Shown here: one piece after another, positions 2 to 51,941 of the stretch
Position numbering within the stretch: the first letter of the stretch is position 1
Layout of the letters: every line of letters starts with the position of its first letter
NCBI GenBank assembly: GCA_965219085.1
Contig: OZ244720.1
Coordinates: forward strand, 707,684 to 771,683
Reading direction: 5' to 3'
Length of the DNA stretch: 64,000 bases
Source: Dehalococcoidia bacterium
GTDB lineage: Bacteria > Chloroflexota > Dehalococcoidia > UBA2979
Notes under the pieces: model-generated
Databases searched by the model: none
What the model was told of the DNA's origin: nothing
What the model saw: only the letters and a program-made list of their open reading frames with translations
Made by a program: the position numbers and the translations under genes

Positions 2-3000
2 ACCGGCACCACCTTCACCGACGCCGACACTGGCGTGCCCATCTACTGGCTGAACGGCAGCAAGGCAGCCGACCACTACCGGGACTTCTATAACGGCAAT
101 TGGGACCAAGAGGCGTCCATGCGGGACGAAGCGGGAACCATCGTTTTCACTTTTCACCCCTGGACGGGCAGCAAACACGACGGCACCGAGGCGTTCAGCA
201 GTGGCGACAGCCGCGCCCTGGGCGCAGCTTCCGTGAGGCGGGGTCAGCCAAACTCGACCGTAGCGGGGAGCGGCCCCCTGTCCAGCAATTCCGACGCGTC
301 AGCCAGCGAGGTTGGGAAATTCTACGCCCTCTCGGACGTGTTCGAGGTATTCACGAACAGCCGGCCCACGGCCGGGCCCACGATCAGCGGCTTCCCCCAG
401 CTGGGGATGACGCTCACCGCCGACGCCTCGACCATCGTCGACCCCGACGGCACGAGCGGCGCCAGCTTCAGCTACCAGTGGGTGCGCAGCGAGGCGGGGA
501 CCGACAGCGAGATCAGCGGCGCGACCGCGACCAGCTACACCCTGGTGGAAGCCGACGTGGGCACGTTGATCAAGGTGACCGTGAGCTACAGCGACGGTGA
601 AGACATGGCCGAGACGGCGACCAGCGAGCCGCTGGGTCCGGTGGGGCGCGTGGTGATCGACTCGGCCGGCAACGTCGACGCCAGGGGCGTCTGGCTCGAG
701 AGCGCCGCCGCAGGAGGCTTCATCATCCGCTTGAGCGATGACGAGGACGACCGGGTCTACGGCTACACCACCGGCCCCCTGACGCACAGTCCCGCCCATG
801 GCTTCGACCTGCACGCGGACAACGGCGACGCCACAGGCATCGCCGCCGCGGACGGCGTGCTGTGGGTGGCCGACCGCGGCGATGACCAGCTCTTCGCCTA
901 CAACGTGGGCGCCAGCGGCACGTTCGGCGCGCGGCTGACGGCCAAGGAGTTCGACCTGCACGCGGACAACCAGCGGCCCGCCGGCGTCTGGACGGACGGC
1001 GAGACCCTCTACGTCGCCGACCCGGACGAAGCCAAGCTCTTCGCCTACCGCGTGGGCGCCGGCGGCACGTTCGGAGAGTCGCTGGCGGACCAGGACGTGG
1101 CGCTGCACGCGGACAACGACGCCCCCTGGGGCGTCTGGTCGACCGGCACGGTGATCTGGGTGGCGGACCGGTCCGACGACTTCATCTACGCCTACAGCCT
1201 CAGCGCCGGCGGCGCGCGGCTCGACGCCGTCGCCCTGCGCTGGGAGTGGCCTCTCGACACGGCCGACGGCAACACCGACCCCTGGGGCATGTGGTCCGAC
1301 GACGACAGGCTGTGGGTGCTTGACGATGGCCGATCGAAGCTCTTCGCGTACTACCTGCCGCTGCCCTCGGCGCCGGACCCGCCGGCTGCAGTCGCGATCA
1401 GCGGCGATGGGGTCGGCGAGCTGACCGTGGAGTGGGAGGCGCCCGGCGACGACGGCGGCAGCGCCATCAGCGGCTACACGGTGCAGTGGAAATCGGGCGC
1501 CGAGAGCTTCGATTCGTCGCGCGAAGGGACGGCCGCCGCGACGGCCCGGTCGCAGACCATCCCGAACCTGACCAACGACACCGAGTACACGCTGCGGGTG
1601 CAGGCGACCAACGCGAACGGCGGCAGCGACTGGGCCGAGACCACGGGCACGCCGCGCGCGGCGGCGGTCTCGATCACGGGGGATACGGAGTTCGTGCGGG
1701 AAGGCACGGCGGCGGCCTTCACGCTGTCGCGCACGGGCCCGGCCGCGGCGGCGCTGACGGTGAGCGTGCTGGTGACGCAGGAGGGCAGCTTCATCGACGG
1801 CACGCTGCCGACGTCGGTGACCATCGCGGCGGGCGATGCCGAGGCGCCGCTGCGCATCGCCACCGAGGACGACGACCTGGGCGAGGACGACGGGTCGATC
1901 AAGGTGACCATCACGGGCGTCTCGTCCGCCATCGCGATCAGCCAGACGGCGGGCTCGGCCACGGTGGCGGTGCGTGATGACTCGGACCTCAAGGCGAAGG
2001 TGTCGGTGGACGTGGAGTCGCTGACCTTCGCGGAGAGCGTCGGCACGGTGACGCTGAAGTACGCCGCGCGCATGGAGCCGAACGTGTCGCCGTTCGCGTT
2101 CGCGGTGTCCGTCCTGACCGACCGCGGCACGGCGAGGACCCTCGACGGTGACTTCGAGGGCTTTTCCGAACACGTCACGGTCGCCGCGACCGATTTCCAG
2201 ATCGAGAACGGGCAGCAGGTGGCGCACAAGACGGTCGACATCACGATCAACAACAACCATGCCGGGCGCTGGGAGGGCGACGAGACGTTCGACTTCCTGG
2301 TGCAGCGCGCTCCCGGCACTCCCGGGTCCGTCCTGGTCGTCGACGGCGACGGGAACAACGCCGTGGGCGGCGCGACCACGACGATCACGATCGCCGACAA
2401 CGATGCGGCGCCGTCGCTGGATATGTCAGTCAGCCCGTCGCTCGTCGAGGAGGGCGACAGCGCGACGCTGACGGTGACGATCGCCGACGGGTCGGCGTTC
2501 GCGGCGGACCAGACCATCGCCCTGACCTTCTCGGGGACCGCGACGCGGGACGTGGATTACACCGCCGACCTCGCTACCGCCGACGTCGATGCGCTGACCC
2601 TCGCGGCGGGCCTGACCGAGGTCGCCGCAACCGTCACCGTTCTCGACGACGCCATCGACGACGATACGGGCGAGACGATCGTGATCGAGGCCGCGCACGC
2701 CGGCACGTCGTTCTCCGAGACCTACACGCTGACGATCGGCGTCGCGTCGCTCGCCAGCGACACGGCGCTGAGCGCTCTGGTGCTGAACGACGGCACGGAC
2801 GACCTGACGCTCACCCCGGCCTTCGCCAGCGGGACGACGAGCTATGCGGCCTCGGTCGGCAACGCCGTCGCGCAGATCACGGTGACGCCGGCGAAGCGCG
2901 ACACGGACGCCTCGCTTGAGTATCTCGACGCGGACGACGCGACCATCAGCGACGCCGATGGCATGACCGCCGGCCAGCAGGTCGATCTGATCGAGGGCGA

Positions 3001-6000
3001 GAACACGATCAAGGTCAAGGTCACCGCCGAGGACGACGCTACGACCGAGACCTACACGGTCGTCGTGACCCGCGCGCAGCGCTGCGATGGAACCCAGCTG
3101 TGGTGCGAAACGATGACTGTTGGGACCGGCGCCGGGACGATCCTTGGTTGGTCTGCATCTGGGATAGTAATTGCCGGAGGTTCCCTCGGCGGCGGCGACC
3201 AGGATTTCGACTACGGCACGCATACGTACAGTTTCGCAATCATTTTCTTGAGCGGCACAACGTTGGGTATCGAATTCGGCGCAGGCGCGGCAGGCGACCT
3301 CGCGAGCACGAGGACCCGGGACAAACTGGTGTTCACCGTGGACGGCCAGGCGTTCGGGCTGGGGGCGGGAAACCTTGCTGCCAATGGCAGAGGCGTGAAC
3401 TGGACCTCGACCGGCCTGACCTGGATGGCCGGCGGCACGGTGGATCTCGAAGTCGTCGAGGCCGCCGTGTCCACCGACGCAGCGCTCAGCGACCTGAGCC
3501 TGAGCGACGGCACGCTCGCCCCCGCGTTCGCGAGCGATACGAACACCTACACCGTTGGAGTCGCGAACAGCGTCGAGACGATCACGCTGACGCCGGCGGC
3601 GAGCCACTCGTGGGCCTCGGTCGAGTATCTCGACGCGAGCGACCTGCCGATCACCGACGCCGACGGAATGACCGATGGCCAGCAGGTGGCGCTCGTGGTG
3701 GGTGCGAACACGATCAAGGTCAAGGTCACGGCCGAGGACGACGCCACGACCCAGACCTACACGCTGACGGTCACCCGAGCGGTGGCGGGGGCTGCCACCG
3801 AGGCGACGCTGAGCGATCTGGTGCTGGACGACGGCACGAGCGAACTGGCGCTCACGCCGGCCTTCGCCAGCGGGACGACGAGCTACACGCGCTGGGTCGG
3901 CAACGGCATCGATCAGATCACGGTGACGCCGGAGACGAGCGATGCGAATGCATCGGTCGAGTATCTCGACGCGGGCGACGCGACCATCAGCGACGCCGAC
4001 ACCATGACCACCGGCCAGCAGATCGATCTCATCGAGGGCGAGAACACGATCAAGGTCAAGGTCACCGCCGAGGACGACGCCACGACCGAGACCTACACGG
4101 TCGTCGTGACCCGCGCGGCCCCTGCCGCCTCGACCGACGCAACACTGAGCGGCCTGGTGCTGAACGACGGCGCCAACGACCTGACGCTCACCCCGGCCTT
4201 CGCCTCGGGGACGACGAGCTACGCGGCTTCGGTCGGCAACGCCGTCTCGCAGATCACGGTGACGCCCACAAAGAGCGACACGGACGCCTCGGTCGAATAT
4301 CTGGACGCGAGCGACGGGGCCATCACCGACGCCGATGGCATGACCGCCGGCCAGCAGGTGGCGCTCGTCGAGGGCGCGAACACGATCAAGGTGAAGGTCA
4401 CCGCGGAGGACGTGATCACGACCGAGACCTACACGGTCGTCGTGACCCGCGCGGCCCCCGCCGCCTCGACCGACGCGACCTTGGTCTCGAACGAAGACGC
4501 AACGGCTGGGACGGGTAACTCAAGCGTCATTCATGCGCAGAGCTTCGTCACCGGAACCAATGCCGGCGGATACACGCTCTCCGAAATCCAGATCCGGCTA
4601 GGAGATTCCAGTGCGGTGCCAGGCGTTACCGGCGTCATCGCGGCCGTCAAGGCCGATGACTCCGGCGCACCGGGCGCCCTCGTCGCCAATCTCGTCAATC
4701 CCGGCAGTCTGACCGCGGACGCATTCAATGCGTTCACCGCGCCGGCCGGCACGACGCTCTCCGCGAACACGACGTACTGGGTGGTGATAAACGAGGAGCG
4801 GAGCAGCAACTCCGACCGGGTGAGGTTGTTCTCTACCGCAGACGATGACGAGGACATAGCCCTGACGGGGTGGAGCATCGGGGACGGCCGCCTGTGGAAG
4901 TCCAACGCATCAGACGCCAGTTGGAACACCTCCGCTGACTCGAATCTGATCATCGTCAAGGGCACCGTGAAGGGGGGCGCCACCAACAACGCGCCGGTCT
5001 TCGCCGACGCCACGACGACGCGCAGCGTGCCCGAGAACAGCGCCGTGGGCACGAACGTCGGGAGCGCGGTCACCGCCACCGACGCCGACAGCGACACGCT
5101 GGAGTACACCCTGGAGGGGACGGATGCCGCGTCCTTCACCATCGTCTCGACTTCCGGCCAGATCCAGACCAAGACGGGGGTGACCTACAACCACGAGGGC
5201 ACGTCCAGCTATTCGGTGACGGTCAAAGCCGACGACGGCAACGGCGGGACCGACACGATCGGGGTGACGGTCACGGTCAGCGACGTGAACGAGGTGCCGT
5301 CGGCGCCGGAAGCGCCGGACGTTACGGCGGCCTCGGGGACGACGGACAGCCTGGTCGTGGACTGGAAGGAGCCGGCCAACACCGGACCGGCGATCACCGA
5401 CTACGACGTGCAGTACCGAAAAGGCAACAGCGGCGCCTTCACCGCCTGGAGCCACACGGACGCCACCACGTCCGCGACGATCACGGGGCTGGAGGCGAGC
5501 ACGTCCTACCAGGTGCAGGTGAAGGCCCGCAACGACGAGGGAGCGAGCGCCTGGTCGGCCAGCGGCACGGGGAGCACCGGGTCGCCAGCCAGCGACGCGG
5601 CGCTGACCGCTCTGGTGCTGAACGACGGCGCCAACGACCTGACGCTGACGCCGACCTTCGCCAGCGGGACGACGAGCTACGCGGCCTCGGTCGGCAACGG
5701 CATCGATCAGATCACGGTGACGCCGGAGAAGAGCGACACTGACGCCTCGGTGGAGTACCTCGACGCGAGCGACGGGGCCATCAGCGATGCCGACGGGTCG
5801 GCCAGCGGCCAGCAGGTGGCGCTCGATGTGGGCGCGAACACGATCAAGGTCAAGGTCACCGCCGAGGACGCGACGACGACCCAGACCTACACGGTCGTCG
5901 TGACCCGCGCGGCCCCCGCCGCCTCGACCGACGCGGCGCTGAGCGGTCTGGTGCTGAACGACGGCGCCAACGACCTGACGCTCACCCCGGCCTTCGCCTC

Positions 6001-9000
6001 GGGGACGACGAGCTACGCGGCTTCGGTCGGCAACGGCATCGATCAGATCACGGTGACGCCAACCAAGAGCGACACGAACGCCTCGCTCGAGTATCTCGAC
6101 GCGAACGGCGCGATCATCAGCGACGCCGACGGGTCGGCCAGCGGCCAGCAGGTGGCGCTCGATGTGGGCGCGAACACGATCAAGGTCAAGGTCACCGCCG
6201 AGGACGCGACGACGACCCAGACCTACACGGTCGTCGTGACCCGCGCGGCCCCCGCCGCCTCGACCGACGCGGCGCTGAGCGGTCTGGTGCTGAACGACGG
6301 CGCCAACGACCTGACGCTCACCCCGGCCTTCGCCTCGGGGACGACGAGCTACGCGGCTTCGGTCGGCAACGGCATCGATCAGATCACGGTGACGCCAACC
6401 AAGAGCGACACGAACGCCTCGCTCGAGTATCTCGACGCGAACGGCGCGATCATCAGCGACGCCGACGGGTCGGCCAGCGGCCAGCAGGTGGCGCTGGAGG
6501 TGGGCGCGAACACGATCAAGGTGAAGGTCACCGCCGAGGACGCGACGACGACCGAGACCTATACGGTCGTCGTGACCCGCGCGGCCCCCGCCGCCTCGAC
6601 CGACGCGGCGCTGAGCGGTCTGGTGCTGAACGGCGGCGCCAACGACCTGACGCTCACGCCGGCCTTCGCCAGCGGGACGACGAGCTACGCGGCCTCGGTC
6701 GGCAACGGCATCGATCAGATCACGGTGACGCCAACCAAGAGCGACACGAACGCCTCGCTCGAGTATCTCGACGCGAACGGCGCGATCATCAGCGACGCCG
6801 ACGGGTCGGCCAGCGGCCAGCAGGTGGCGCTGGAGGTGGGCGCGAACACGATCAAGGTGAAGGTCACCGCCGAGGACGCGACGACGACCGGGACCTACAC
6901 GGTCGTCGTGACGCGCGCGGCCCCCGCCGCCTCGACTGACGCGGCGCTGAGCGGTCTGGTGCTGAACGACGGGACGAACGACCTGACGCTCACCCCGGCC
7001 TTCGCCTCGGGGACGACGAGCTACGCGGCCTCGGTCGGCAACGGCATCGATCAGATCACGGTGACGCCGGAGAAGAGCGACACGGACGCCTCGGTCGAGT
7101 ATCTGGACGGTAACGACGCGGCGATCAGCGACGCCGACGGGTCGGCCGCCGGCCAGCAGGTGGCGCTCGATGTGGGCGCGAACACGATCAAGGTCATGGT
7201 CACCGCCGAGGACGCGACGACGACCGAGACCTACACGGTCGTCGTGACCCGCGCCATGGCGGGTCCGGTGGCGCCGCTGCCGCGGCCAGACACGCTGGTC
7301 AGCAATATCGGTAAAGCTAACACCGGCATCGCCCCCCTGGACGCATATGATTTTACCCAGGAGTTTACGACCGGCGACAACAGCGACGGCTATACGCTAA
7401 CCAGCGTCGACATCGAGTTTGGCCAAGTTGAGGAAGCCAGGATCACCTACGCGGTCAGCATCCGGGAAGACAAGACCGGCGAGCCGGGAAGGAAAATCGA
7501 AAGGCTCACCGACCCGGCCAGGCTCTCGGCCAACGCCCTCAATACGTACACGACATCCGGCATCGCTCTGGCGGCGAACACGACCTACTTCGTACTGGTG
7601 AACAGTAGCACTACCCACACTACCTATCTGCGGTACACCAGTTCGGATGCGGAGGATTCCGGGGCTGCGAGCGATTGGACGATTGGCGACGCCAGCCTCT
7701 TACGGTTCCAGCACGGAGGCACCTGGGGCACTTCTTCCGAGACCATCAAAATCCGCATCAACGGCACGGTGACGGGGGCCGACGCGACGCTGAGCGGTCT
7801 GGCGCTGCACGACGGCGCCAACGAGCTGACGCTCACGCCGACGTTCTCCTCGGGGACGACGAGCTACGCGGCCTCGGTCGGCGACGCCGTCTCGCAGATC
7901 ACGGTGACGCCCACGAAGAGCGACGCGGACGCCTCGGTGGAGTACCTCGACGCGAGCGACGGGGCCATCAGCGACGCCGACGGGATGGCCAGCGGCCAGC
8001 AGGTGGCGCTCGTCTTGGGCGCGAACACGATCAAGCTCAGGGTCACCGCCGCGGACGCGATGACGACCGTGACCTACACGGTCGTCGTCACCCGCGCGGC
8101 GACGGCCTCGAGCGACGCAACGCTGAGCGGTCTGCTGCTGAACGACGGCGCCAACGAGCTGACGCTCACCCCAAGCTTCGCCTCCGGAACGACGAGCTAC
8201 GCGGCCTCGGTCGGCAACGCTGTCTCGCGGATCACGGTGACGCCGGAGAAGAGCCACACGGACGCCTCGCTCGAGTATCTCGACGGAAACGATGCGGCGA
8301 TCAGCGACGCCGACGGGGCGGCCAGCGGCCAGCAGGTGGCGCTCGTGGTGGGCGCGAACACGATCAAGGTCGAAGTCACCGCCGCGGACGCGATGACGAC
8401 CGTGACCTACACGATCGTCGTGACCCGCACCACTGGCCCCGGCACGGAGCCCGGCCCGCCCACCAACGTGCAGGCGTCGGGCAACGCCGAGCTCGGCGTC
8501 ACCTGGGACGCCCCCGACGACGGCGGCAGCGCCATCAGCGGCTACACGCTGCAGTGGAAGTCGGGCGCCGAGAGCTACAGCACGACGCGGCAAGCCACTG
8601 TCACGACCACCACCCACACCATCCCGGCGCTGACCAACGGCACGACCTACACGGTGCGGGTCAAGGCGACCAACACCCACGGCGACAGCGGCTGGACCGA
8701 GATCACGGCCACGCCGGGATCCGGCGCCGGCGTGGCGTCGGTGACGGTGGACCAGGCCAGCATCACCCAGACCAGCGCAGACGTCATCGTGACGGTGGAG
8801 AACCTCCAGGGCGTAGGCCACACGGTGTACGTGCGCTACCGGGAGGCGGGCGCTAACTGGCCGGGGAGCGCGAACCTGCTCCTGGCGACCAGCGGGACTG
8901 CCATCACCGTCACCCTGGCCGGCCTGAGCGGGAACACGGACTACGACGTGGCGGCGTCCCTGGACAGCGGCATCGCCCCGGGAGTCCGGACCGCCAGCTT

Positions 9001-11227
9001 CACGACCTTGCGCACGAAGCCGGGTAAGACCAGGGCGGTGAACGTCACCTTCGAAGGGGACGGCCAGTTCAGCATCGGCTGGACCCAGCCCGAGAACGAC
9101 GGCGGGTCGCCCATCACCGGTTACCAGGTGCAGTGGAAGTCGGGCAGCCAGAGCTTCGGCGGCGATCCGTCGCGGGAGGACACCACCGGGGCTTCGCCGA
9201 GGACCTACGTCGTCACCGGGCTGACCAACGGCACCGCGTACACGGTGCGGGTGATTGCGGTGAACGCCGTCGGCGACGGCCCGCCGTCCGATGAGCAGAC
9301 AGCCACCCCCGTCGTCGGCAAGCCGGACGCGCCCGGCAACGTGCAGGCATTGTCGGGCAACGCCGAGCTGACCGTGACCTGGGACGGCCCCTACGACGGC
9401 GGCAGCGCCATCACCGAGTACACCCTGCAGTGGAAGTCGGGCAACCAGAGCTTCGGGGGCGATCCGTCGCGGGAGGACACCACCGGGGCTTCGCCGAGGA
9501 CCTACGTCGTCACCGGGCTGGCCAACGGCACCCAGTACGCGGTGCGGGTCAAGGCGACCAACACCAACGGCGACAGCGGCTGGTCCGTCGAGGCGACGGG
9601 CACTCCCCGTTCCAGCATCACCACCGGCGGCGGAGGCGGCGGTGGTGGTGGTGGCCCGTCGGGGCCCTCGCCGAGCGAGCTGGACTTCGAGTGGAACGTG
9701 AAGCGCGACCTCGAAGCGCTGGACGGCGGCCACGACACGCCGACCGGCTCCTGGTCCGACGGCACGGTCCTCTGGATCGCCGAGAACGGCCCGGGCGCCG
9801 GCGACGCCGTCTACGCCTACGACCTCCAGACCGGCGAACGGGTGGAGGAGCGCGAGTTCGAACTCGACGAGCGCAACCGCGCGCCGCGCGGCGTCTGGTC
9901 CGACGGCGAGACGGTGTGGGTCTCCGACAGCGGCCAGGACCGCCTCTTCGGCCATGACCTCGAGACGGGCGAGCGGCTGCCGGAGCGCGACCTCGAGCTC
10001 GACGAGGACAACGGCGCCGCCCGCGGCATCTGGTCGGATGGCGAGAGGATGTGGGTGCTCGACGGCGGCAAGGACAGCCTCTTCGCCTACGACCTCGGGA
10101 GCGGCGCGCTGGTGGCCGAGTACGCCCTCGACGACGCCAACGGCGACCCCCACGGCATCTGGTCGGACGGCGTCACGATCTGGGTCTCGGACCACGGCGC
10201 GAAGCGGCTCTTCGCCTACCGCCTCGATGATGGGGCGCTCGTACGCAACAGCGAGGAGGAGTTCACGGAGCTGAGCAAGGCCTCCAACAACAGCCCGCGC
10301 GGCATCTGGTCGGACGGCGAGGTGATCTACGTGGCCGACGAGAGCGACGACAAGGTCTACAGCTACAACATGCCCGACGCGATCGACGCGCGCCTCGCCT
10401 CGCTGACGCTGAGCGGCATCGAGATCGGGGAGTTCTCGGGGGACCGCACGGAGTACGACGGCGTCGCCGCCGAGGGCGTGACGGAGACGACGGTCGAGGC
10501 GGAGGCGCTGCAGCGCCGCACGACCGTCCTCATCGAGCCGGCCGACGCCGGCGGCGACGACACGAACGGCCACCAGCTGGCGCTGGAGGGCATCGACGCG
10601 ATCACGGTCACCGTGACCTCGGCCGACGGCAGCCGCACGCGCGTCTATCGCGTGCGGCTTGAGGGCGGCGCGGCGCAGGAAGCGCCCTGGACGCACTGCT
10701 TGCGCGGCGACATCGCTGAGGGCTTCAGCCTCGTCGTCTATGAGGGCGGCGGCGTCGAGGAACTGGTCACCTGCGCGGAGAGCCGCGATGTCGTGGCCCT
10801 CTACGCGCTGCACGGCGGCGAGTTCGTCTCGTACATCCTTGGAGCGCCGGAGTTCGTGAACCAACCGTTCGTCGAGCTGTTCGCCGATGGCGTCCCCCCG
10901 GTCACGCCGCTGGTCGCTGGGAGCAGCGGACCGCCATCAACGGACCCGAACCTCGGCGACGGCGCCCTGTTGCCCTGGCCGGAGTGCCTGCGCGGCGAGA
11001 TCGCCGCGGGCTTCAGCCTCGTCATCTATGAGGGCGGTAGCGTCGATGATCTCGTGGCCTGCGCGCAGAGCCTGGCCGTCACGGCCCTCTACGCGCTCCA
11101 CGACGGCGAGTTCGTTCCCTACATCCTTGGTGCGCCCGACTTCGTGAACCGCGACTTCAGGGAGTTGTTCGCCGACGGCCTGCCCGCCATCGCAGCACTG
11201 GTCGCCAGGAGCGAGGGGCACCCGTAG
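2..11227 (+). CDS. Giant surface adhesin, 5'-partial, more than 3730 aa. Order: NHL-like propeller repeats (about 700-1370); FN3 (about 1375-1650, 5290-5575, 8440-9600); Calx-beta-like (about 1660-1970, 2390-2700); about 11 cadherin-like beta-sandwich units of about 110 aa (2755-4450, 5581-7260, 7775-8420); one true cadherin domain (about 4985-5290); second NHL-like propeller (about 9690-10380); duplicated C-terminal Cys domain
   Basis: The frame is open from nt 2 (GTG at 35) with no in-frame stop. Repeats of the type LVLNDGxxDLTLTPAFASGTTSYxASVGN...ANTIKVKVTAED match the cadherin-like fold. FN3-like WKSG motifs occur. Repeats of the type D-N-x-x-P-x-G-[VI]-W-[ST]-D-G-x-T-[LI]-W-V-[AS]-D...LF-A-Y match NHL/propeller blades. 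Confidence 0.8.
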   Translation, partial: TGTTFTDADTGVPIYWLNGSKAADHYRDFYNGNWDQEASMRDEAGTIVFTFHPWTGSKHDGTEAFSSGDSRALGAASVRRGQPNSTVAGSGPLSSNSDASASEVGKFYALSDVFEVFTNSRPTAGPTISGFPQLGMTLTADASTIVDPDGTSGASFSYQWVRSEAGTDSEISGATATSYTLVEADVGTLIKVTVSYSDGEDMAETATSEPLGPVGRVVIDSAGNVDARGVWLESAAAGGFIIRLSDDEDDRVYGYTTGPLTHSPAHGFDLHADNGDATGIAAADGVLWVADRGDDQLFAYNVGASGTFGARLTAKEFDLHADNQRPAGVWTDGETLYVADPDEAKLFAYRVGAGGTFGESLADQDVALHADNDAPWGVWSTGTVIWVADRSDDFIYAYSLSAGGARLDAVALRWEWPLDTADGNTDPWGMWSDDDRLWVLDDGRSKLFAYYLPLPSAPDPPAAVAISGDGVGELTVEWEAPGDDGGSAISGYTVQWKSGAESFDSSREGTAAATARSQTIPNLTNDTEYTLRVQATNANGGSDWAETTGTPRAAAVSITGDTEFVREGTAAAFTLSRTGPAAAALTVSVLVTQEGSFIDGTLPTSVTIAAGDAEAPLRIATEDDDLGEDDGSIKVTITGVSSAIAISQTAGSATVAVRDDSDLKAKVSVDVESLTFAESVGTVTLKYAARMEPNVSPFAFAVSVLTDRGTARTLDGDFEGFSEHVTVAATDFQIENGQQVAHKTVDITINNNHAGRWEGDETFDFLVQRAPGTPGSVLVVDGDGNNAVGGATTTITIADNDAAPSLDMSVSPSLVEEGDSATLTVTIADGSAFAADQTIALTFSGTATRDVDYTADLATADVDALTLAAGLTEVAATVTVLDDAIDDDTGETIVIEAAHAGTSFSETYTLTIGVASLASDTALSALVLNDGTDDLTLTPAFASGTTSYAASVGNAVAQITVTPAKRDTDASLEYLDADDATISDADGMTAGQQVDLIEGENTIKVKVTAEDDATTETYTVVVTRAQRCDGTQLWCETMTVGTGAGTILGWSASGIVIAGGSLGGGDQDFDYGTHTYSFAIIFLSGTTLGIEFGAGAAGDLASTRTRDKLVFTVDGQAFGLGAGNLAANGRGVNWTSTGLTWMAGGTVDLEVVEAAVSTDAALSDLSLSDGTLAPAFASDTNTYTVGVANSVETITLTPAASHSWASVEYLDASDLPITDADGMTDGQQVALVVGANTIKVKVTAEDDATTQTYTLTVTRAVAGAATEATLSDLVLDDGTSELALTPAFASGTTSYTRWVGNGIDQITVTPETSDANASVEYLDAGDATISDADTMTTGQQIDLIEGENTIKVKVTAEDDATTETYTVVVTRAAPAASTDATLSGLVLNDGANDLTLTPAFASGTTSYAASVGNAVSQITVTPTKSDTDASVEYLDASDGAITDADGMTAGQQVALVEGANTIKVKVTAEDVITTETYTVVVTRAAPAASTDATLVSNEDATAGTGNSSVIHAQSFVTGTNAGGYTLSEIQIRLGDSSAVPGVTGVIAAVKADDSGAPGALVANLVNPGSLTADAFNAFTAPAGTTLSANTTYWVVINEERSSNSDRVRLFSTADDDEDIALTGWSIGDGRLWKSNASDASWNTSADSNLIIVKGTVKGGATNNAPVFADATTTRSVPENSAVGTNVGSAVTATDADSDTLEYTLEGTDAASFTIVSTSGQIQTKTGVTYNHEGTSSYSVTVKADDGNGGTDTIGVTVTVSDVNEVPSAPEAPDVTAASGTTDSLVVDWKEPANTGPAITDYDVQYRKGNSGAFTAWSHTDATTSATITGLEASTSYQVQVKARNDEGASAWSASGTGSTGSPASDAALTALVLNDGANDLTLTPTFASGTTSYAASVGNGIDQITVTPEKSDTDASVEYLDASDGAISDADGSASGQQVALDVGANTIKVKVTAEDATTTQTYTVVVTRAAPAASTDAALSGLVLNDGANDLTLTPAFASGTTSYAASVGNGIDQITVTPTKSDTNASLEYLDANGAIISDADGSASGQQVALDVGANTIKVKVTAEDATTTQTYTVVVTRAAPAASTDAALSGLVLNDGANDLTLTPAFASGTTSYAASVGNGIDQITVTPTKSDTNASLEYLDANGAIISDADGSASGQQVALEVGANTIKVKVTAEDATTTETYTVVVTRAAPAASTDAALSGLVLNGGANDLTLTPAFASGTTSYAASVGNGIDQITVTPTKSDTNASLEYLDANGAIISDADGSASGQQVALEVGANTIKVKVTAEDATTTGTYTVVVTRAAPAASTDAALSGLVLNDGTNDLTLTPAFASGTTSYAASVGNGIDQITVTPEKSDTDASVEYLDGNDAAISDADGSAAGQQVALDVGANTIKVMVTAEDATTTETYTVVVTRAMAGPVAPLPRPDTLVSNIGKANTGIAPLDAYDFTQEFTTGDNSDGYTLTSVDIEFGQVEEARITYAVSIREDKTGEPGRKIERLTDPARLSANALNTYTTSGIALAANTTYFVLVNSSTTHTTYLRYTSSDAEDSGAASDWTIGDASLLRFQHGGTWGTSSETIKIRINGTVTGADATLSGLALHDGANELTLTPTFSSGTTSYAASVGDAVSQITVTPTKSDADASVEYLDASDGAISDADGMASGQQVALVLGANTIKLRVTAADAMTTVTYTVVVTRAATASSDATLSGLLLNDGANELTLTPSFASGTTSYAASVGNAVSRITVTPEKSHTDASLEYLDGNDAAISDADGAASGQQVALVVGANTIKVEVTAADAMTTVTYTIVVTRTTGPGTEPGPPTNVQASGNAELGVTWDAPDDGGSAISGYTLQWKSGAESYSTTRQATVTTTTHTIPALTNGTTYTVRVKATNTHGDSGWTEITATPGSGAGVASVTVDQASITQTSADVIVTVENLQGVGHTVYVRYREAGANWPGSANLLLATSGTAITVTLAGLSGNTDYDVAASLDSGIAPGVRTASFTTLRTKPGKTRAVNVTFEGDGQFSIGWTQPENDGGSPITGYQVQWKSGSQSFGGDPSREDTTGASPRTYVVTGLTNGTAYTVRVIAVNAVGDGPPSDEQTATPVVGKPDAPGNVQALSGNAELTVTWDGPYDGGSAITEYTLQWKSGNQSFGGDPSREDTTGASPRTYVVTGLANGTQYAVRVKATNTNGDSGWSVEATGTPRSSITTGGGGGGGGGGPSGPSPSELDFEWNVKRDLEALDGGHDTPTGSWSDGTVLWIAENGPGAGDAVYAYDLQTGERVEEREFELDERNRAPRGVWSDGETVWVSDSGQDRLFGHDLETGERLPERDLELDEDNGAARGIWSDGERMWVLDGGKDSLFAYDLGSGALVAEYALDDANGDPHGIWSDGVTIWVSDHGAKRLFAYRLDDGALVRNSEEEFTELSKASNNSPRGIWSDGEVIYVADESDDKVYSYNMPDAIDARLASLTLSGIEIGEFSGDRTEYDGVAAEGVTETTVEAEALQRRTTVLIEPADAGGDDTNGHQLALEGIDAITVTVTSADGSRTRVYRVRLEGGAAQEAPWTHCLRGDIAEGFSLVVYEGGGVEELVTCAESRDVVALYALHGGEFVSYILGAPEFVNQPFVELFADGVPPVTPLVAGSSGPPSTDPNLGDGALLPWPECLRGEIAAGFSLVIYEGGSVDDLVACAQSLAVTALYALHDGEFVPYILGAPDFVNRDFRELFADGLPAIAALVARSEGHP
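5581..7260 (+). repeat. Five tandem, near-identical 336-bp (112-codon) repeats inside the giant adhesin gene
   Basis: Unit starts at 5581, 5917, 6253, 6589 and 6925. Each begins gcggcccccgccgcctcgaccgacgcggcgctgagcggtctggtgctgaacgac and differs by only a few substitutions. Confidence 0.9.
10681..11224 (+). other. Two tandem copies of an unnamed Cys-containing C-terminal domain of about 85 aa
   Basis: Copy 1 is 10681-10920 and copy 2 is 10966-11224. Shared motifs are CLRGEI-AEGFSLV-YEGG-V--LV-CA, ALYALH-GEFV-YILGAP-FVN, and FRELFADG. Confidence 0.6.
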
Positions 11228-13994: not shown

Positions 13995-14115
13995 GGTTCC
14001 GTTCCTTTCGTCCTGTAGGGTTTGGCGAGCCGCGCGATGCGGCTTGTGACAGAGCGAGGCCCCGTCCCACGCGGGTGGTGGGGCGGGGCCTCGTGGTGCC
14101 GCTCGGAGTGAGCGG

Positions 14116-16904: not shown

Positions 16905-17023
16905 GGTCGGGTTCTCCTTCGTGGTTGATGGTGTCCGTGATGGATGCGGCGAGGCCGCCCCCTGAGGGAGCGGCCCCGTGTGCGCCCGCGTGTCGGCGGG
17001 CGGCGTCTGTGTGCCGTGGGTGG

Positions 17024-17422: not shown

Positions 17423-17568
17423 GTTCAGTCTCCTTCTGGTGATGGTTGTCACCGTGGCGGTGCGGCCTCGCCGCACCTGGTTCGAAACGACGGCGGGGCC
17501 GCCCCCGTCAGGGAGCGGCCCCGTGTGCGCCCGCGCGCGGCGGGCGGCGTCTGTGTGCCGGTGGTTGG

Positions 17569-20587: not shown

Positions 20588-20711
20588 TTCGTGTCCTCCT
20601 GTGGTGTGGTTCCTGGTGCCGGGTCGTGCGCCCTCGCGGGCATGAAGAGGGCCGCCTCCAAAGAGGCGGCCCCATGGCTGGGTGGATACGGTGGGCCGGA
20701 GCCCAGGGTCG

Positions 20712-27103: not shown

Positions 27104-27122
27104 CACCAAGGAGCACACCCCC

Positions 27123-47568: not shown

Positions 47569-48638
47569 TGTAGTTCCCACGTAGGTTGTTGACACCTGCA
47601 GGGCGTCTTGAACCCTGCAGGGGTTGCTCGTGAAGGGAGCCTCCGGGAGAAGGTGTGAGTAACAAGCCAGCACCTTGCACCTGGAGGCTCCGATGCATCG
47701 TAACGCCCGACTGACCTTCCTCGCCCGCCGCACGATGGTGGAACGCATCGCCGCGGGCCGCGCGGTCGCGCACGTCGCCGCCGAGATGGGCGTCTCCCGT
47801 CCGACCGCCTACAAGTGGTGGCGACGCTGGCTGGAGGAGGGCGAGGCCGGTCTCGAGGACCGCCCCAGCCGCCCGCGACGCTCCCCGGCGCGTGTCCCGG
47901 CACGGCTGGAGCGCGCGATCGAGCGCCTGCGCCGCCGCGAGAAGCTCGGTCCGGCACGCATCGGCTTCCGCCTCGGGATGCACGCCTCCACCGTCCACCG
48001 CGTGCTGTGCCGCCGCGGCCTCAACCGCCTCGCCTGGCTCGACCGCCCGAGCGGGCAGCGGATCCGCCGCCCCCGGCGCTACGAGCATGCCCGCCCGGGC
48101 GACCTGCTGCACATCGACGTCAAGAAGCTGGGGCGCATGCCCCCGGGCGGCGGCTGGCGCGCCCACGGACGGGGCCAGGCGCCGCGCAGCCGCGCCGGCT
48201 ACGCCTTCATCCACTCCGCCGTGGACGACCACACGCGCCTCGCCTACAGCGAGATCCTCGCGGACGAGCGCGCCGTCAGCGCAGCCGCCTTCCTGCAGCG
48301 GGCGTGGGCCTGGTTCGCCGAGCTCGGCATCGAGGTGCGGGCCGTGCTCACCGATAATGGCGGCGCCTACAAGAGCCGCCTGTTCAGCTCCGCCTGCCGC
48401 CTCAGCGGCGGGCGGGCGAAGCGGACCCGGCCCTACCGCCCGCAAACCAACGGCAAGGTCGAGCGCTTCCACCGCACGCTGCTCGAGGAGTGGGCCTACG
48501 TCCGCGTCTACCGCAGCGAGGCCGAACGCGCAGCCGCCCTCGGACCTTCGCTGCACCGCTACAATCATCACCGTTGCCACACCGCGATCGGAGGTGAACC
48601 CCCGATCAGCCGTGTCAACAACGTCCCGGGACACTACA
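47569..48638 (+). mobile_element. IS481-family insertion sequence (about 1070 bp)
   Basis: Imperfect terminal inverted repeats of about 28 bp are tgtagttcccacgtaggttgttgacac on the left and the reverse complement of gtgtcaacaacgtcccgggacactaca on the right. Confidence 0.7.
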
Positions 48639-48643
48639 CCTGA
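47693..48643 (+). CDS. IS481-family DDE transposase
   Basis: It has an MHRNARLT-type N-terminal HTH and an rve-type DDE core (LLHIDVKKLG...DNGGAY...NGKVERF). Confidence 0.8.
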   Translation: MHRNARLTFLARRTMVERIAAGRAVAHVAAEMGVSRPTAYKWWRRWLEEGEAGLEDRPSRPRRSPARVPARLERAIERLRRREKLGPARIGFRLGMHASTVHRVLCRRGLNRLAWLDRPSGQRIRRPRRYEHARPGDLLHIDVKKLGRMPPGGGWRAHGRGQAPRSRAGYAFIHSAVDDHTRLAYSEILADERAVSAAAFLQRAWAWFAELGIEVRAVLTDNGGAYKSRLFSSACRLSGGRAKRTRPYRPQTNGKVERFHRTLLEEWAYVRVYRSEAERAAALGPSLHRYNHHRCHTAIGGEPPISRVNNVPGHYT

Positions 48644-48960
48644 TATGGAGTGACCGGCTGTCAAGCAGCACCGGCGGTGGTCGTGGCGATCCGGCTCCGG
48701 AACGGGGGGAGATGGACGAACGAGGGCGCTGCTTCGACGACGTGTCACTCTGATATTCGCGGGTTGCCTGTGGCCTTGCCGCATGACCGTGCTTCGCCGG
48801 GAGGGGTCGCCGTCTAGCATCGCGGGTTGACGGCGCCGGGCGCCGCTGCCGCATAGGTGTACCGCGCATCCTCCTGAGCCTGCCCTCGCTCATCCACCCC
48901 CTCCTGCTCCGGAACGGCGTACCGCCGTCTCCGCCCTCGCCGCGGACCGGGCGCGTTGTA

Positions 48961-50097
48961 TCAGGCCGCCGCCTGCTCCCGGGCGCCGGCCTTCGGCTCT
49001 CCCGCGGATGCGGGGATACGCCGCAGCACCGCCCACAGGTAGCCCGCAAGTTCGCGGGCGACGGCGGTGTTCGCCACGACCGACGGCTTGCCGTGAGCGG
49101 CCAGCCGCCGGTGGCGGCGATAGAGCCGGGTCTGCGCCCGGTCGGCCAGCACCACGGCCCAGCCCGGCTGGCCCTCCCGCCGCTTGCGCAGGGCTGCGCC
49201 GACCCGCGGCGGGTGGCGGTAGTGCCAGGCGCTCTCCACCAGGATGCGGCGCACGTGGCTGTTCCCTGTCTTCGTGATCGGCCCCCGCCGCTGGCGCGCC
49301 CCGCTGCTGTGCTCGCTCGGCGTCAGCCCGAGGTAGGACATCAGCTGCCGGGCGCTGCCGAAGCGCGTGACGTCGCCGAGTTCGGCCAGCACCGTCATCG
49401 CCGTCACCGTGTCGACCCCGCGGAAGCAGCGCAGCAGCCCCACCGCCTCGCGGTAGTCGTCGCTGGCGGCACACGCGGCCAGTTCCTGCTCCAGCGTGCG
49501 CAGCCGCTCCTCCACGCCCTCGAGCGCGCGCAGGTAGTCGTCGAAGGTGGCCTGCGCGGCCGGGTGTTCGAAGCGCAGCGTCAGCAGCCAGCGGCGGTGC
49601 CGCAGCGTCCAGTTCCGCCCGTCGTAGGCGATGCCGCGCCGCAGCAGCAGCTTCGCCAGGCGGTGGCGCGCCCGCGTGCGGTCGGTCACGGCGTCCTCGC
49701 GCGCCCGGCAGAGGTCGCGCACCGCCTCCTGGTCGATGGTCGGGGGATGCACCGCCGTGAGCAGGTCCGCGCGCAGCAGCTCGGCGAGCTTCCGTGCGTC
49801 GCGACGGTCGGTCTTGACGCGGTCGCCGGGTCGCCTGGGGATCAGCGCCGGGGCGATCACCCGGCATTCGACGCCCTCGGCCTCCAGCCGGCGCTGCAGC
49901 GCGAAGCCGCCCGGCCCGGCCTCGTAGCAGGCCACGAGCGGCCCCGGCGCCATGCGCCGCAGGCGCTGCGCGAGCCGCTTCACCGCCTTCGGCTCGTTCG
50001 CCAGCTGCCACTCCTCGGGCCGCTCGGCCCCCGGCGCCAGCACCGCCACGTGGATCGCCCGCGCGTGTGCATCCATCCCTGCGTATGTGGTAGTCAT
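48961..50097 (-). CDS. IS110-family transposase, copy 2; its C-terminus is supplied by flanking DNA
   Basis: The protein is identical to copy 1 up to ...YLWAVLRRIP. Confidence 0.75.
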   Translation of the reverse strand: MTTTYAGMDAHARAIHVAVLAPGAERPEEWQLANEPKAVKRLAQRLRRMAPGPLVACYEAGPGGFALQRRLEAEGVECRVIAPALIPRRPGDRVKTDRRDARKLAELLRADLLTAVHPPTIDQEAVRDLCRAREDAVTDRTRARHRLAKLLLRRGIAYDGRNWTLRHRRWLLTLRFEHPAAQATFDDYLRALEGVEERLRTLEQELAACAASDDYREAVGLLRCFRGVDTVTAMTVLAELGDVTRFGSARQLMSYLGLTPSEHSSGARQRRGPITKTGNSHVRRILVESAWHYRHPPRVGAALRKRREGQPGWAVVLADRAQTRLYRRHRRLAAHGKPSVVANTAVARELAGYLWAVLRRIPASAGEPKAGAREQAAA

Positions 50098-50194
50098 CTT
50101 CCTGACCGGCTCCTTTCGCATGCGGCTCTGCATGCCTCGCGTCTGTAACCCGCGAGTTTGCGAACTCGGAGCCGGTCACTCCATACGGTCTAGG
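49010..50194 (-). mobile_element. IS110-family insertion sequence, copy 2, identical to copy 1 and inverted
   Basis: Nucleotide identity to 43572-44754. Its left end directly abuts the IS5 inverted repeat at 50195. Confidence 0.75.
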
Positions 50195-51374
50195 GATGGT
50201 CTGAACAACTCGCCTGAGCGGGTGAGCAGATGCGATCATGGGGCGACCCGGAGAGGGGCGGCCCATGCAGCAGCGTTCGTTCGGCAGCGTCGAGTACGAG
50301 CACAAGAAGGTCAAGACGAGGCGGCAGGCGTTCCTCGAGCGCATGGACGGGCTCGTCCCCTGGGCTGAGCTGGAGCAGCGCATCGCGCCCGTCTACCCGA
50401 AGCGCGGCCGCGGACGCCGCCCCTACGCGCTGCGCGTGATGCTGCGCATCCACTGCCTGCAGCTCTGGTTCAACCTCAGCGACCCCGGCATGGAGCAGGA
50501 ACTCTACGACTCCCGCTCGATGCTCGAGTTCGCCGGTCTCAGCCTCTCCGAGCCGATCCCCGATGAGACGACGATCCTCAACTTCCGCCACCTGCTGGAG
50601 CGCCATCAGCTGGGAACGGCGCTGTTCGCGACGATCAACGCGCACCTGGCACGGCAGGGGCTGCAGGTGTGCGAGGGCACGATCGTGGACTCCACGATCA
50701 TCAGCGCGCCGTCATCGACGAAGAACCGCGAGCGTGCGCGCGACCCCGAGATGCACCAGACCAGCAAGGGCCGGCAGTGGTACTTCGGGATGAAGCTGCA
50801 CGCCGGCACGGATGCGCGGACGGGGCTGGTCCACAGCGTGAGCACGACGGCGGCGAACGTCTCAGACGTGACCGAGGCGCATCGCCTCTTGCACGGCGGC
50901 GAGACGGAGGCGTGGGGCGATGCCGGCTACCAGGGAGTGGAGAAGCGCCCGGAGCACGCGGGGTCGGAGGTGAGCTGGCAGGTGGCGATGCGTCCGGGTC
51001 TCAGGCGGCAGCTGGCGCCGGGGGGCGAGGAGGCGCAGGCGGAGCGGCGCAAGGCCTCGGTGCGCGCCAAGGCTGAGCATCCGTTTCTCTACGTGAAGCG
51101 GCACTTCGGGTACGCGCAGGTCCGCTACCGGGGTCTTGAGAAGAACCGCCAGCGTCTCATGCTGCTGCTCGGTTTCACGAACCTGTTGCGAGCCGAGCCT
51201 CAGCTCGCCTGATCGCGGGAGCGCTGCGTCCGGAATCGCTCCCGCAGGCGAGCCCGCAGCGGAGTGGGAACGGGATCGCCCCCTGAACCGCGGCATCGGC
51301 CCCCGCAGCGCGGCTCGGCACGCCGATCGGCCCGCACCGCGCCCGATACGCCACCTGTTCAGACCTTCCCTAGG
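50195..51374 (+). mobile_element. IS5-family insertion sequence (about 1180 bp)
   Basis: Terminal inverted repeats are GGATGGTCTGAACA on the left and the reverse complement GGAAGGTCTGAACA on the right. Confidence 0.7.
50265..51212 (+). CDS. IS5-family DDE transposase
   Basis: It has the DDE_Tnp_1 motifs DSTIISAPSSTKN and GDAGYQGV...YRGLEKN. Confidence 0.8.
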   Translation: MQQRSFGSVEYEHKKVKTRRQAFLERMDGLVPWAELEQRIAPVYPKRGRGRRPYALRVMLRIHCLQLWFNLSDPGMEQELYDSRSMLEFAGLSLSEPIPDETTILNFRHLLERHQLGTALFATINAHLARQGLQVCEGTIVDSTIISAPSSTKNRERARDPEMHQTSKGRQWYFGMKLHAGTDARTGLVHSVSTTAANVSDVTEAHRLLHGGETEAWGDAGYQGVEKRPEHAGSEVSWQVAMRPGLRRQLAPGGEEAQAERRKASVRAKAEHPFLYVKRHFGYAQVRYRGLEKNRQRLMLLLGFTNLLRAEPQLA

Positions 51375-51516: not shown

Positions 51517-51880
51517 TTGGGGGCTCCCGCAGCCACGCCGGAATGTCTCGCACCGCATGCGCCGCTGGTGGCCCAGAGCAACGGACCGCCCTGGGTGGAC
51601 CCATTCGGGGACGACGACCGCCAGACGTGGGCGGAGTGCCTGCGCGGCGAGGTCGCCGAGGGCTTCAGCCGCGTCGTCTTCGAGGGGGCAGCGTCGACGA
51701 CCTCGTGGCCTGCTCGGAGCGCCTGCAGGTGACGGCCCTCTACGCCCTGCACGACGGCGGGTGGGTCTCCTGCATCCTCGGCGCGCCGGAGTGGGTGAAC
51801 GCCGAGTTCCGGGAGTTGTTCGCCGAGGGCGTTCCCTCGATCACGCCGCTCGTCGTCAGGAGTGAGGGGCCTCCGGAAGC
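51517..51880 (+). pseudogene. Orphan, frameshifted 3' fragment encoding the adhesin C-terminal Cys domain; it begins right at the IS5 right end
   Basis: QTWAECLRGEVAEGFSRVVFEGA, then after a frameshift VDDLVACSERLQVTALYALHDGGWVSCILGAPEWVNAEFRELFAEGVPSITPLV, match the domains at 10681-11224. Confidence 0.6.
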
Positions 51881-51941
51881 CAACTGCCTGAGCTTGGCGG
51901 GTTCGAGCGCTGCAAGAGTTGCTCAAACGCAGCCCGCGTGG

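What the first reader, a model, noticed from the sequence alone, without database searches (positions are those of the whole stretch)
10681..11224. Unnamed Cys-containing C-terminal domain, duplicated at the adhesin tail and present as an orphan cassette 40 kb away
The domain is about 85 aa with conserved CLRGE, ALYALH, ILGAP-FVN and ELFADG motifs. It occurs twice in tandem at the C-terminus of the giant adhesin. It occurs a third time as a frameshifted orphan at 51517-51880 directly after an IS5 element. A C-terminal module with orphan copies resembles the cassette logic of polymorphic surface or toxin proteins. The two conserved cysteines suggest a disulfide-stabilised anchoring or effector domain. 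I know of no named family for it.
Basis: inference. Interest (0 to 1): 0.6.

Follow-up and report, generated by a model that had tools for sequence, protein, structure and literature searches.

The report
Unnamed tandem tail domain of giant adhesins
The giant surface protein ends in two copies of a small, previously unnamed domain that many large secreted proteins of sponge-associated Chloroflexota share, probably as a common handle tethering them to the cell envelope, and the distant "orphan" copy is a decayed gene remnant left among insertion sequences.

Summary
The giant ORF (2-11227, +) ends in two ~85-aa copies (10682-10939 and 10967-11224, 68% identical). A third copy lies at 51622-51875.

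The domain matches nothing in Pfam, NCBIfam or PDB sequences. A confident AlphaFold model (pLDDT 91) has no Foldseek neighbour in PDB or BFVD.

It is still a large family: 846 clusters at 50% identity. The pair almost always sits at the extreme C-terminus of 1000-5000-aa proteins. Many members have Sec signal peptides, and their bodies are varied (Cadherin-like, fn3, LRR, Kelch, Calx-beta, subtilase). In reference genomes it occurs only in Dehalococcoidia/Tepidiformaceae MAGs, several from sponges, with at least 9 loci per genome.

The most likely role, by inference only, is a shared module that tethers or docks these proteins to the envelope of a monoderm cell.

The polymorphic-toxin "cassette" idea is not supported. 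The tail is the conserved part of these proteins, not the variable part. There is no immunity gene. The orphan has lost most of copy 1, carries a 1-nt frameshift and has lost its stop codon, and it sits behind three stacked insertion sequences. In the closest related contig, an IS splits the orthologous tail from its gene.

Verdict: a new domain family of a familiar kind, of moderate interest.

The parts
2..11227 (+). Giant repeat protein gene. It is open from the window edge, so the 5' end lies outside the window and at least 3741 codons are visible. It has 12 Cadherin-like domains, 5 fn3 domains and propeller-like repeats.
   Evidence: There is no in-frame stop between positions 2 and 34. 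Pfam scores: PF12733 1e-155, PF00041 4e-73.
10388..10669 (+). Last Cadherin-like beta-sandwich, immediately before the tail pair. It is part of the conserved ~310-aa 3' module shared by paralogues.
   Evidence: Many homologous fragments carry PF12733 directly before the pair.
10682..10939 (+). Tail domain copy 1 (~86 aa), with element order beta-alpha-beta-beta-alpha-beta and cysteines in CLRG and C-A-E-S.
   Evidence: HMM 147 bits; model pLDDT above 90.
10940..10966 (+). Short Pro/Gly/Asp-rich linker between the two copies. It is the low-confidence segment of the model.
   Evidence: pLDDT about 60 for residues 91-100.
10967..11224 (+). Tail domain copy 2. The protein ends 0-16 residues after this domain across the family.
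51517..51621 (+). Degraded end of a former copy 1 (LGAP..., with an 8-aa deletion) plus the inter-domain linker of a lost paralogous gene.
   Evidence: (alignments to P0122-P0148, P0136).
51622..51886 (+). Orphan copy 2. It has a 1-nt deletion frameshift near 51683-51688 and has lost its stop codon (AAC TGC where relatives have AAC then stop). It is a pseudogene remnant.
50194..51369 (+). IS5-family element. The transposase ORF is 50238-51212. Its terminal inverted repeats are GGATGGTCTGAACA / TGTTCAGACCTTCC, and CTAG is duplicated on both sides (50190-50193 and 51370-51373).
   Evidence: DDE_Tnp_1 2e-27, DUF772.
48644..50193 (-). IS110-family element abutting the IS5. A second copy of part of it, 100% identical and inverted, lies at 43572-44755.
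47675..48643 (+). IS481-family transposase gene, the third IS in the stack upstream of the orphan.
   Evidence: rve, LZ_Tnp_IS481, HTH_28.
54534..58345 (+). Second gene of the same giant-protein family (fn3 repeats plus the same propeller-like repeats). It is split into two frames at 56300. A partial IS5 right end (58329-58578) cuts it off before the Cadherin-like and tail module.

Best explanation
The 10682-11224 segment encodes a tandem pair of a previously unnamed ~85-aa alpha/beta domain. The pair is the shared C-terminal module of a large paralogous family of Sec-secreted surface proteins, often giant, in sponge-associated Dehalococcoidia/Tepidiformaceae (Chloroflexota). These bacteria are monoderm, with a peptidoglycan layer and an S-layer.

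Proposed mechanism, by inference: the N-terminal signal peptide exports the protein. The two domains pack into one compact, disulfide-stabilised unit. That unit non-covalently docks the cell-proximal C-terminus onto a common envelope partner, which could be peptidoglycan, a wall polymer, the S-layer or a receptor protein. The variable Cadherin/fn3/LRR/Kelch body then projects outward towards the host matrix. The invariant residues lie in two glycine-rich strand-to-helix loops (GG[ST] and GAPxFVN), which are the likely binding site.

The copy at 51.5 kb is the decayed 3' remnant of another family member, lost through IS-associated rearrangement. It is not a functional cassette.
For: Shown:
- The pair is real and conserved.
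- The family has 846 clusters at 50% identity with E<=1e-3. In the top hits the pair ends within a few residues of the C-terminus of 1000-5146-aa proteins. It lies 0-14 residues from the stop codon in 71 genomic loci.
- 259 of 268 members carry exactly two copies.
- Many full-length members start with typical Sec signal peptides.
- Passenger architectures are diverse: Cadherin-like, fn3, LRR, Kelch, Calx-beta, DUF11, Peptidase_S8, PPDK_N.
- The reference-genome scan found the pair only in Dehalococcoidia/Tepidiformaceae/Chloroflexota MAGs, apart from one 8-kb contig binned as Gammaproteobacteria. There are at least 9 loci per genome, often in arrays.
- The AF2 models are confident: pLDDT 91 with pTM 0.83 for the pair, and 92 with 0.82 for one domain.
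- The cysteine pair is present in 465 of 476 instances and both cysteines are lost together in a divergent branch.
- There is no C-terminal hydrophobic segment and no LPXTG motif.
- Some members append sub-threshold SH3b-like domains after the pair. SH3b is a class of wall-binding domains, so this places envelope-binding elements at this end of the protein.

Orphan as debris.
Confidence: 0.5

Rival explanations
1. Distal binding tip. The N-terminus holds the protein at the cell, and the conserved tail pair is the outermost domain. It would bind a common host ligand (sponge matrix or glycan) or mediate cell-cell contact.
For: The residues are conserved in loop positions typical of ligand sites. 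The proteins carry eukaryote-like adhesion repeats and come from sponge symbionts. The acidic surface is not typical of wall-binding modules.
Against: Full-length members have cleavable-looking Sec signal peptides rather than N-terminal anchors. The same tip on at least 9 very different stalks per genome, including a subtilase, is harder to explain than a common anchor. SH3b-like domains are added beyond the pair in some members.
Confidence: 0.2
2. Export, sorting or folding module. The pair would be recognised by a dedicated export or processing machine, or act as an intramolecular chaperone, and be removed afterwards. This would resemble T9SS C-terminal domains or tailspike C-terminal chaperone domains.
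For: The position is strictly C-terminal across hundreds of otherwise unrelated passengers.
Against: The hosts are monoderm and the proteins already have Sec signals. No conserved partner gene recurs next to the loci: the common downstream neighbours are other family genes, a GAF-domain protein and transposases. No cleavage motif was identified. The T9SS CTD, PEP-CTERM and LPXTG models do not match.
Confidence: 0.15
3. Polymorphic toxin or effector system with orphan cassettes. The tail would be a deliverable effector, and orphan copies would be spare modules that recombine into the full gene.
For: Truncated tail copies do recur: in the window at 51.5 kb, at L027 19687-20040, and in L035, L049 and L074.
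Against: The tail is the conserved part of the family, not the variable part. No immunity-like gene follows it. Pfam finds no pre-toxin boundary motif or toxin domain. The orphan is frameshifted, truncated and has lost its stop. The orphans sit at IS insertions.
Confidence: 0.03
4. Recombination handle. The conserved 3' module and its remnants would serve as homology tracts for gene conversion or shuffling among paralogues, diversifying the surface repertoire.
For: Some paralogues in the same genome have nearly identical tails (L003/L004 100%, L011/L013 98%, L017/L022 96%). The genes also lie in arrays.
Against: Most paralogues in a genome differ by 10-45%, and many have 95-99% orthologues in other genomes. 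That indicates old, vertically kept copies. The window orphan is only about 77% identical in DNA to the adhesin tail. Recent tandem duplication explains the identical pairs.
Confidence: 0.05

Closest known systems
Non-covalent C-terminal wall or S-layer binding modules of monoderm bacteria (SLH, CWB2, SH3b, LysM, GW)
   Same: These are small folded domains repeated in tandem at one end of Sec-exported surface proteins. Many paralogues with different functional bodies share them, and they lack a membrane segment. SH3b-like domains even follow the pair in some members.
   Different: There is no sequence match to any of these families and no structural neighbour. The domain is acidic and carries a conserved cysteine pair. 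Binding has not been tested.
T9SS C-terminal domain (Por_Secre_tail) of Bacteroidota
   Same: Both are conserved ~80-100-aa C-terminal domains shared by dozens of otherwise unrelated secreted or surface proteins per genome.
   Different: The T9SS CTD is a beta-sandwich used by an outer-membrane secretion machine in diderms and is cleaved. Here the model is alpha/beta, the hosts are monoderm Chloroflexota, the domain is duplicated, and no NCBIfam or Pfam match exists.
Dockerin modules of cellulosomal proteins
   Same: Both are internally duplicated C-terminal modules carried by many different secreted proteins, which would plug them into a common partner.
   Different: Dockerins are ~70-aa duplicated calcium-binding helix pairs. 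This module is two 85-aa beta-alpha-beta-beta-alpha-beta domains with no match to dockerin. No cohesin-like partner has been identified.
Polymorphic toxin C-terminal and orphan modules (Rhs, CdiA-CT)
   Same: Both involve large surface proteins and truncated 3' copies elsewhere in the genome.
   Different: In this family the conservation pattern is inverted (constant tail, variable body). There are no immunity genes, and the orphans are decayed and flanked by IS elements.

Membership tests
Any named Pfam-A / NCBIfam domain | Profile HMM match at or near the curated cut-off | tested here: not met
   The best Pfam hit is Rv1893-like at E 0.1 and 12.7 bits against a cut-off of 27. NCBIfam gives no hit. 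Scanning 32 members individually shows no meaningful recurrent family.
Any solved structure (sequence or fold) | Significant profile hit to PDB sequences, or Foldseek E<=1e-3 with TM>0.5 | tested here: not met
Polymorphic toxin systems (Rhs/CDI-type) | Conserved N-terminal body with a hypervariable C-terminal toxin domain | tested here: not met
   The C-terminal pair is conserved at 55-100% among paralogues and across 846 clusters, while the bodies vary.
Polymorphic toxin systems (Rhs/CDI-type) | Cognate immunity gene immediately downstream of the toxin domain and of orphan modules | tested here: not met
   Downstream of 11227 is a methylase-helicase on the opposite strand. Downstream of the orphan is a response regulator on the opposite strand.
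Polymorphic toxin systems (Rhs/CDI-type) | Orphan modules are intact and can be joined to the main gene through a shared boundary | tested here: not met
   The orphan has a frameshift, an internal deletion and a lost stop, and is only about 77% identical in DNA to the adhesin tail.
Sortase (LPXTG) / exosortase (PEP-CTERM-like) sorting signals | Short motif followed by a hydrophobic helix and a basic tail at the extreme C-terminus | tested here: not met
   One of 268 members has an LPxTG-like string in its last 60 residues. The longest hydrophobic run in the last 40 residues is 10 or fewer. NCBIfam CTERM models do not hit.
T9SS C-terminal domain | Match to Por_Secre_tail-type models, a beta-sandwich fold and a diderm host with T9SS | tested here: not met
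   There is no model match. The predicted fold is alpha/beta. Tepidiformales lack outer-membrane genes (PMC10284905).
SLH / CWB2 / LysM / SPOR / SH3b wall-binding domains | Sequence-profile membership of the tail domain itself | tested here: not met
   The tail pair has no hits. Only the extra domains after the pair in some members give sub-threshold SH3_3 hits, at E 0.008-0.16 and below the 27-bit cut-off.
SLH / CWB2 / LysM / SPOR / SH3b wall-binding domains | Binding to peptidoglycan or secondary wall polymers | not testable with these tools
   This needs binding assays with purified sacculi or S-layer.
Ferredoxin-like (beta-alpha-beta-beta-alpha-beta) fold | The same order of elements and a structural match to ferredoxin-like domains | tested here: inconclusive
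   The order of elements matches.

The most novel reading that the evidence does not exclude
The tandem tail is a fold not yet represented among solved structures, and it defines a lineage-specific surface-display system. In this reading, one docking module and one envelope receptor together tether the whole repertoire of giant host-interaction proteins (about ten or more per genome) in sponge-symbiotic Dehalococcoidia. These bacteria would then display adhesins without sortase-type or SLH-type anchors.
Probability: 0.35. Interest if true: 0.55.

Novelty: new variant of a known kind. Interest (0 to 1): 0.4.

Why it matters
Sponge-associated Chloroflexota are abundant and uncultured, and they are known for eukaryote-like adhesion repeats. 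How they hold such proteins on the cell is unknown. A single conserved tail shared by at least nine proteins per genome gives three practical things. It is a sequence marker for cataloguing the symbionts' surface repertoire. It is a small, well-folded target (about 180 aa) for binding and structural studies. It may also lead to an envelope-attachment mechanism not yet described in monoderm Chloroflexota.

There is also an annotation warning. Many database 'proteins' of 120-320 aa that carry this tail are fragments. They arise from single-base indels in long-read assemblies or from IS insertions. They are not small genes or cassettes.

Tried and rejected
1. Short homologues as free-standing cassettes. 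The top 120 hits (145-317 aa) and the 119-133-aa hits looked like small genes. Inspection of L001 and L002 showed each overlaps the end of a 1382-2445-aa ORF in another frame because of a 1-nt indel. Most short ORFs in reference-genome loci likewise continue upstream in another frame. The idea was rejected, except for a few true remnants (L027, L035, L049, L074).

2. The ICE carrying a replacement 3' end, with the orphan as the displaced original tail. This was rejected. The ICE-like block ends at the serine recombinase (38.7 kb), housekeeping genes follow it, and the orphan lies 13 kb further on.

3. The lost gene body lying just upstream of the IS stack. This was rejected. There is no family homology between 41 and 51.3 kb, and the region holds IS481, IS110 and IS5.

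5. A conserved neighbouring gene, such as a processing enzyme or receptor. Clustering of downstream ORFs across 71 loci found only more family genes, a GAF-domain protein in 15 loci and IS5-type transposases in 7 loci.

6. General concerted evolution of the tails within genomes. This was not seen: only 22 of 65 nearest neighbours are in the same genome.

7. Looking up the window's own source through its gltX product. It is not on record.

8. Context of the divergent five-copy member P0268. It gave no taxonomic clue.


Full report
**1. Observation**

The + strand ORF covering 2-11227 is open from the window edge, with no in-frame stop in bases 2-34. It encodes at least 3741 residues, with 12 Cadherin-like (PF12733) domains, 5 fn3 domains and further repeats. 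Read in frame, its last 181 residues are two tandem copies of an ~86-aa unit. Copy 1 is 10682-10939, a 9-residue linker follows, and copy 2 is 10967-11224, with the stop at 11225. The two copies are 68% identical (tblastn E 2e-35).

A six-frame HMM scan of the whole window finds only one more copy. It is split between two frames at 51622-51690 and 51681-51875 by a 1-nt deletion in the conserved E-G-G codons.

**2. No named family and no known fold**

Pfam-A and NCBIfam give no hit for the pair. Scanning 32 family members individually against Pfam gives no meaningful recurrent weak hit. A profile search of PDB sequences gives nothing.

AlphaFold2 with family alignments gives confident models. 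The pair scores pLDDT 91.2 and pTM 0.83, and a single domain scores pLDDT 91.9 and pTM 0.82. Each domain has the element order beta-alpha-beta-beta-alpha-beta. The high pTM of the pair suggests the two domains pack against each other.

**3. A large family with a fixed architecture**

An exhaustive HMMER search of 1.84 billion cluster representatives finds 846 clusters at E<=1e-3 and 185 at E<=1e-30. In the top hits the pair occupies the last ~190 residues of proteins of 1000-5146 aa, for example 3067-3257 of 3258.

- Of the 268 members retrieved, 259 have exactly two copies.
- In 71 genomic loci the pair ends 0-14 codons before the stop.
- Many full-length members start with typical Sec signal peptides, for example MRWAASLALVAALCLATPAERAGAQA.
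- The bodies vary: Cadherin-like, Cadherin, fn3, LRR, Kelch, Calx-beta, DUF11, subtilase, PPDK_N.
- A Cadherin-like domain and one blade of an unnamed propeller-like repeat usually precede the pair, so about 310 residues at the 3' end are conserved.
- Both cysteines of a domain are present in 465 of 476 instances.
- A divergent branch (P0266, P0268) has five dispersed copies that lack both cysteines. It keeps the invariant core GG...GAPxFVN..F.
- The domains are acidic (median pI 4.3), as are the bodies.
- There is no C-terminal hydrophobic segment and no LPXTG-like motif.

**4. Where the family occurs**

A scan of one genome per GTDB species returned 151 matches. All are in Dehalococcoidia, Tepidiformaceae or Chloroflexota MAGs, except one 8-kb contig binned as Gammaproteobacteria, which comes from the same SB0675 sample set as a Chloroflexi bin. 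SB0675 also yielded Poribacteria, which are sponge symbionts.

Single genomes hold at least 9 loci, for example OZ253575.1, OZ246422.1 and OZ253555.1, and the loci are often in tandem arrays. The scan uses peptide patterns, so 'only in this lineage' applies to close relatives.

Published work shows that Tepidiformales are monoderm, with a cytoplasmic membrane, a ~20-nm peptidoglycan layer and an S-layer. [quoted passage not shown] The window has 70.5% G+C. Its tail is closest to a Dehalococcoidia MAG at 79-80%.

**5. The short homologues are mostly artefacts**

The best 120 hits of the first homology search are only 145-317 aa long and start inside the conserved module, for example at MYVADESD.... 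In L001 and L002 each such ORF overlaps the end of a 2445-aa or 1382-aa ORF in another frame. The cause is a single extra base relative to the window sequence.

In the reference genomes, most short tail-bearing ORFs likewise have family homology just upstream in another frame. These are split giant genes, not cassettes.

**6. The orphan**

Homology to the family starts at about 51517 with LGAP. It continues through a copy-1 tail carrying an 8-residue deletion, then the linker, then copy 2. Copy 2 carries the frameshift. The usual ending ...RSEGPPEAN-stop now reads AAC TGC, so the frame runs on into the convergent response-regulator gene.

There is no other family homology between 41 and 51.3 kb. 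Immediately upstream lie three insertion sequences:
- an IS481-type transposase gene at 47675-48643;
- an IS110-type element at 48644-50193;
- an IS5-type element at 50194-51369, flanked by CTAG on both sides.

The window also holds a second family gene at 54534-58345, with fn3 repeats and the same propeller-like repeats. It is broken into two frames at 56300. A 250-bp partial IS5 right end (58329-58578, 97% identical to the full copy) cuts it off before its Cadherin-like and tail module.

In the closest related contig (L074), the orthologous tail is 92% identical in DNA. An IS4-like element separates it from the orthologous Cadherin-like segment, which is 94% identical. A 91% identical copy of that IS sits at window 58882-60515. 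That insertion created the 200-aa 'orphan' P0001.

Other true remnants exist. L027 19687-20040 lies next to an IS5-type transposase, and further remnants are in L035 and L049. The orphans are therefore best read as IS-associated erosion of a large gene family.

**7. Mechanism**

What is shown:
- Sec signal peptides at the N-terminus of many members;
- a constant folded tail at the C-terminus with varied bodies in between;
- many paralogues per genome;
- monoderm hosts;
- a conserved cysteine pair, consistent with an extracellular domain;
- no sortase- or exosortase-type signal.

What is inferred: the tail pair is a non-covalent tethering or docking module that fixes the C-terminus to a common envelope partner. 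This would parallel SLH, CWB2, SH3b or dockerin modules.

A small additional clue comes from five members (P0186, P0211, P0237, P0247, P0267). They add one or more Cys-containing domains after the pair and an acidic linker. The best Pfam hit for three of the four such tails scanned is the bacterial SH3 domain, although it is sub-threshold (E 0.008-0.16). SH3b domains commonly bind cell walls (established knowledge). This places envelope-binding elements at this end, but it also allows that the pair itself has another role.

The invariant residues lie in the beta1-alpha1 loop (GG[ST]) and the beta3-alpha2 loop (GAPxFVN). These are typical ligand-binding positions in alpha/beta domains; that reading is inference.

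The acidity of the domain argues against simple electrostatic binding to anionic wall polymers. I put about 0.5 on the overall explanation. Within that, the descriptive part (what it is, and the orphan as debris) is near 0.85 and the tethering mechanism is near 0.4.

**8. Rivals**

- Distal ligand-binding tip: 0.2.
- Cleaved export, sorting or folding domain: 0.15.
- Recombination handle: 0.05.
- Polymorphic-toxin cassette: 0.03.

The toxin reading fails three defining tests: a variable C-terminus, an adjacent immunity gene, and intact orphans. Concerted evolution is not general. Tails within a genome are 55-100% identical, and many have 95-99% orthologues in other genomes.

**9. Novelty and verdict**

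This is a real, previously unnamed domain family, with no detectable sequence or structural relative in the libraries that could be searched. Its architectural role as the shared C-terminal module of a surface-protein repertoire is a familiar one.

I rate it a new variant of a known kind, with moderate interest (0.4). It is useful as a marker and as an experimental handle for sponge-symbiont surface biology. It is not a new type of genetic system, and the 'orphan cassette' aspect is ordinary IS-driven decay.

Noticed in passing
window 11700-38702: An integrative-conjugative-element-like block starts right after the adhesin stop. It encodes a DUF6094 methylase-helicase fusion (11712-15539, -), a primase (19077-20675, -), a VirB4/TraG-like ATPase (27024-29426), a coupling protein (29510-32089), a relaxase-like protein (32086-33759) and a large serine recombinase (37053-38702). 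Housekeeping genes follow from 38776 (gltX, a pseudouridine synthase, malic enzyme).
   Followed up: partly
window 43572-44755 and 48644-50193: There are two copies of an IS110-type element in inverted orientation. They are 100% identical over 1184 bp and then diverge at the transposase 3' end. The identity stops exactly at the CTAG that the IS5 duplicated.
   Followed up: partly
window 54534-58345 and 58329-58578: A second giant-family gene (fn3 repeats plus propeller-like repeats) is split into two frames at 56300. A 250-bp partial IS5 right end truncates it, and it has no Cadherin-like or tail module. Fragments resembling another giant-protein body follow the IS5 piece (about 58600-58900).
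   Followed up: partly
window 58882-60515; L074 8349-10013: An IS4-like element (DDE_Tnp_1_4) in the window is 91% identical to the copy in the closest related contig. There it is inserted exactly between the Cadherin-like domain and the tail pair of the orthologous adhesin.
   Followed up: yes
window about 700-1400 and 9700-10380 (protein residues about 230-460 and 3225-3450): A ~45-aa repeat, W(S/T)DG.T(L/I)(Y/W)VAD....K(L/V)(F/Y)AY, looks like beta-propeller blades. Pfam flags it only as a weak NCH3 hit. It may be another unnamed repeat family typical of these proteins.
   Followed up: no
L001 9950-10060; L002 9950-10060: Single-base indels in long-read metagenome assemblies split giant genes. 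As a result the protein databases hold hundreds of spurious 120-320-aa 'proteins' that start inside the conserved 3' module.
   Followed up: yes
P0186, P0211, P0237, P0247, P0267 (residues after the tail pair): Some family members add one to several Cys-containing ~65-aa domains (..NTGG.GV..R.DC....R...GW.DG..V.....G.GRC.GW..V......SWV...Y.) after an acidic linker. Their best Pfam match is bacterial SH3 (SH3_3), below threshold.
   Followed up: partly
P0266, P0268 (L075 5072-9163): A divergent branch of the domain has five dispersed, cysteine-free copies about 170 aa apart, in proteins with a signal peptide. One member also has Kelch repeats. The taxon is unknown.
   Followed up: partly
window 51942-53925 (-); L074 19630-20599; 15 of 71 related loci: A NarL-type response regulator and a HisKA_3 kinase lie convergent to the orphan and are syntenic in the closest relative. 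A GAF-domain protein recurs downstream of family genes in 15 loci. This may be regulatory linkage.
   Followed up: no
window 62229-62750, 63000-63979 and 16947-18067: These regions contain internal DNA repeats. Two are short-period tandem arrays near the right end of the window, 72-86% identical between units. The third is a ~580-bp tandem duplication at 91% identity inside the ICE-like block.
   Followed up: no
window 51483-51501: A G+C-rich hairpin (GGCCCCC-GAGC-GGGGGCC) lies in the 145-nt spacer between the IS5 end and the orphan. Its origin is unknown.
   Followed up: no
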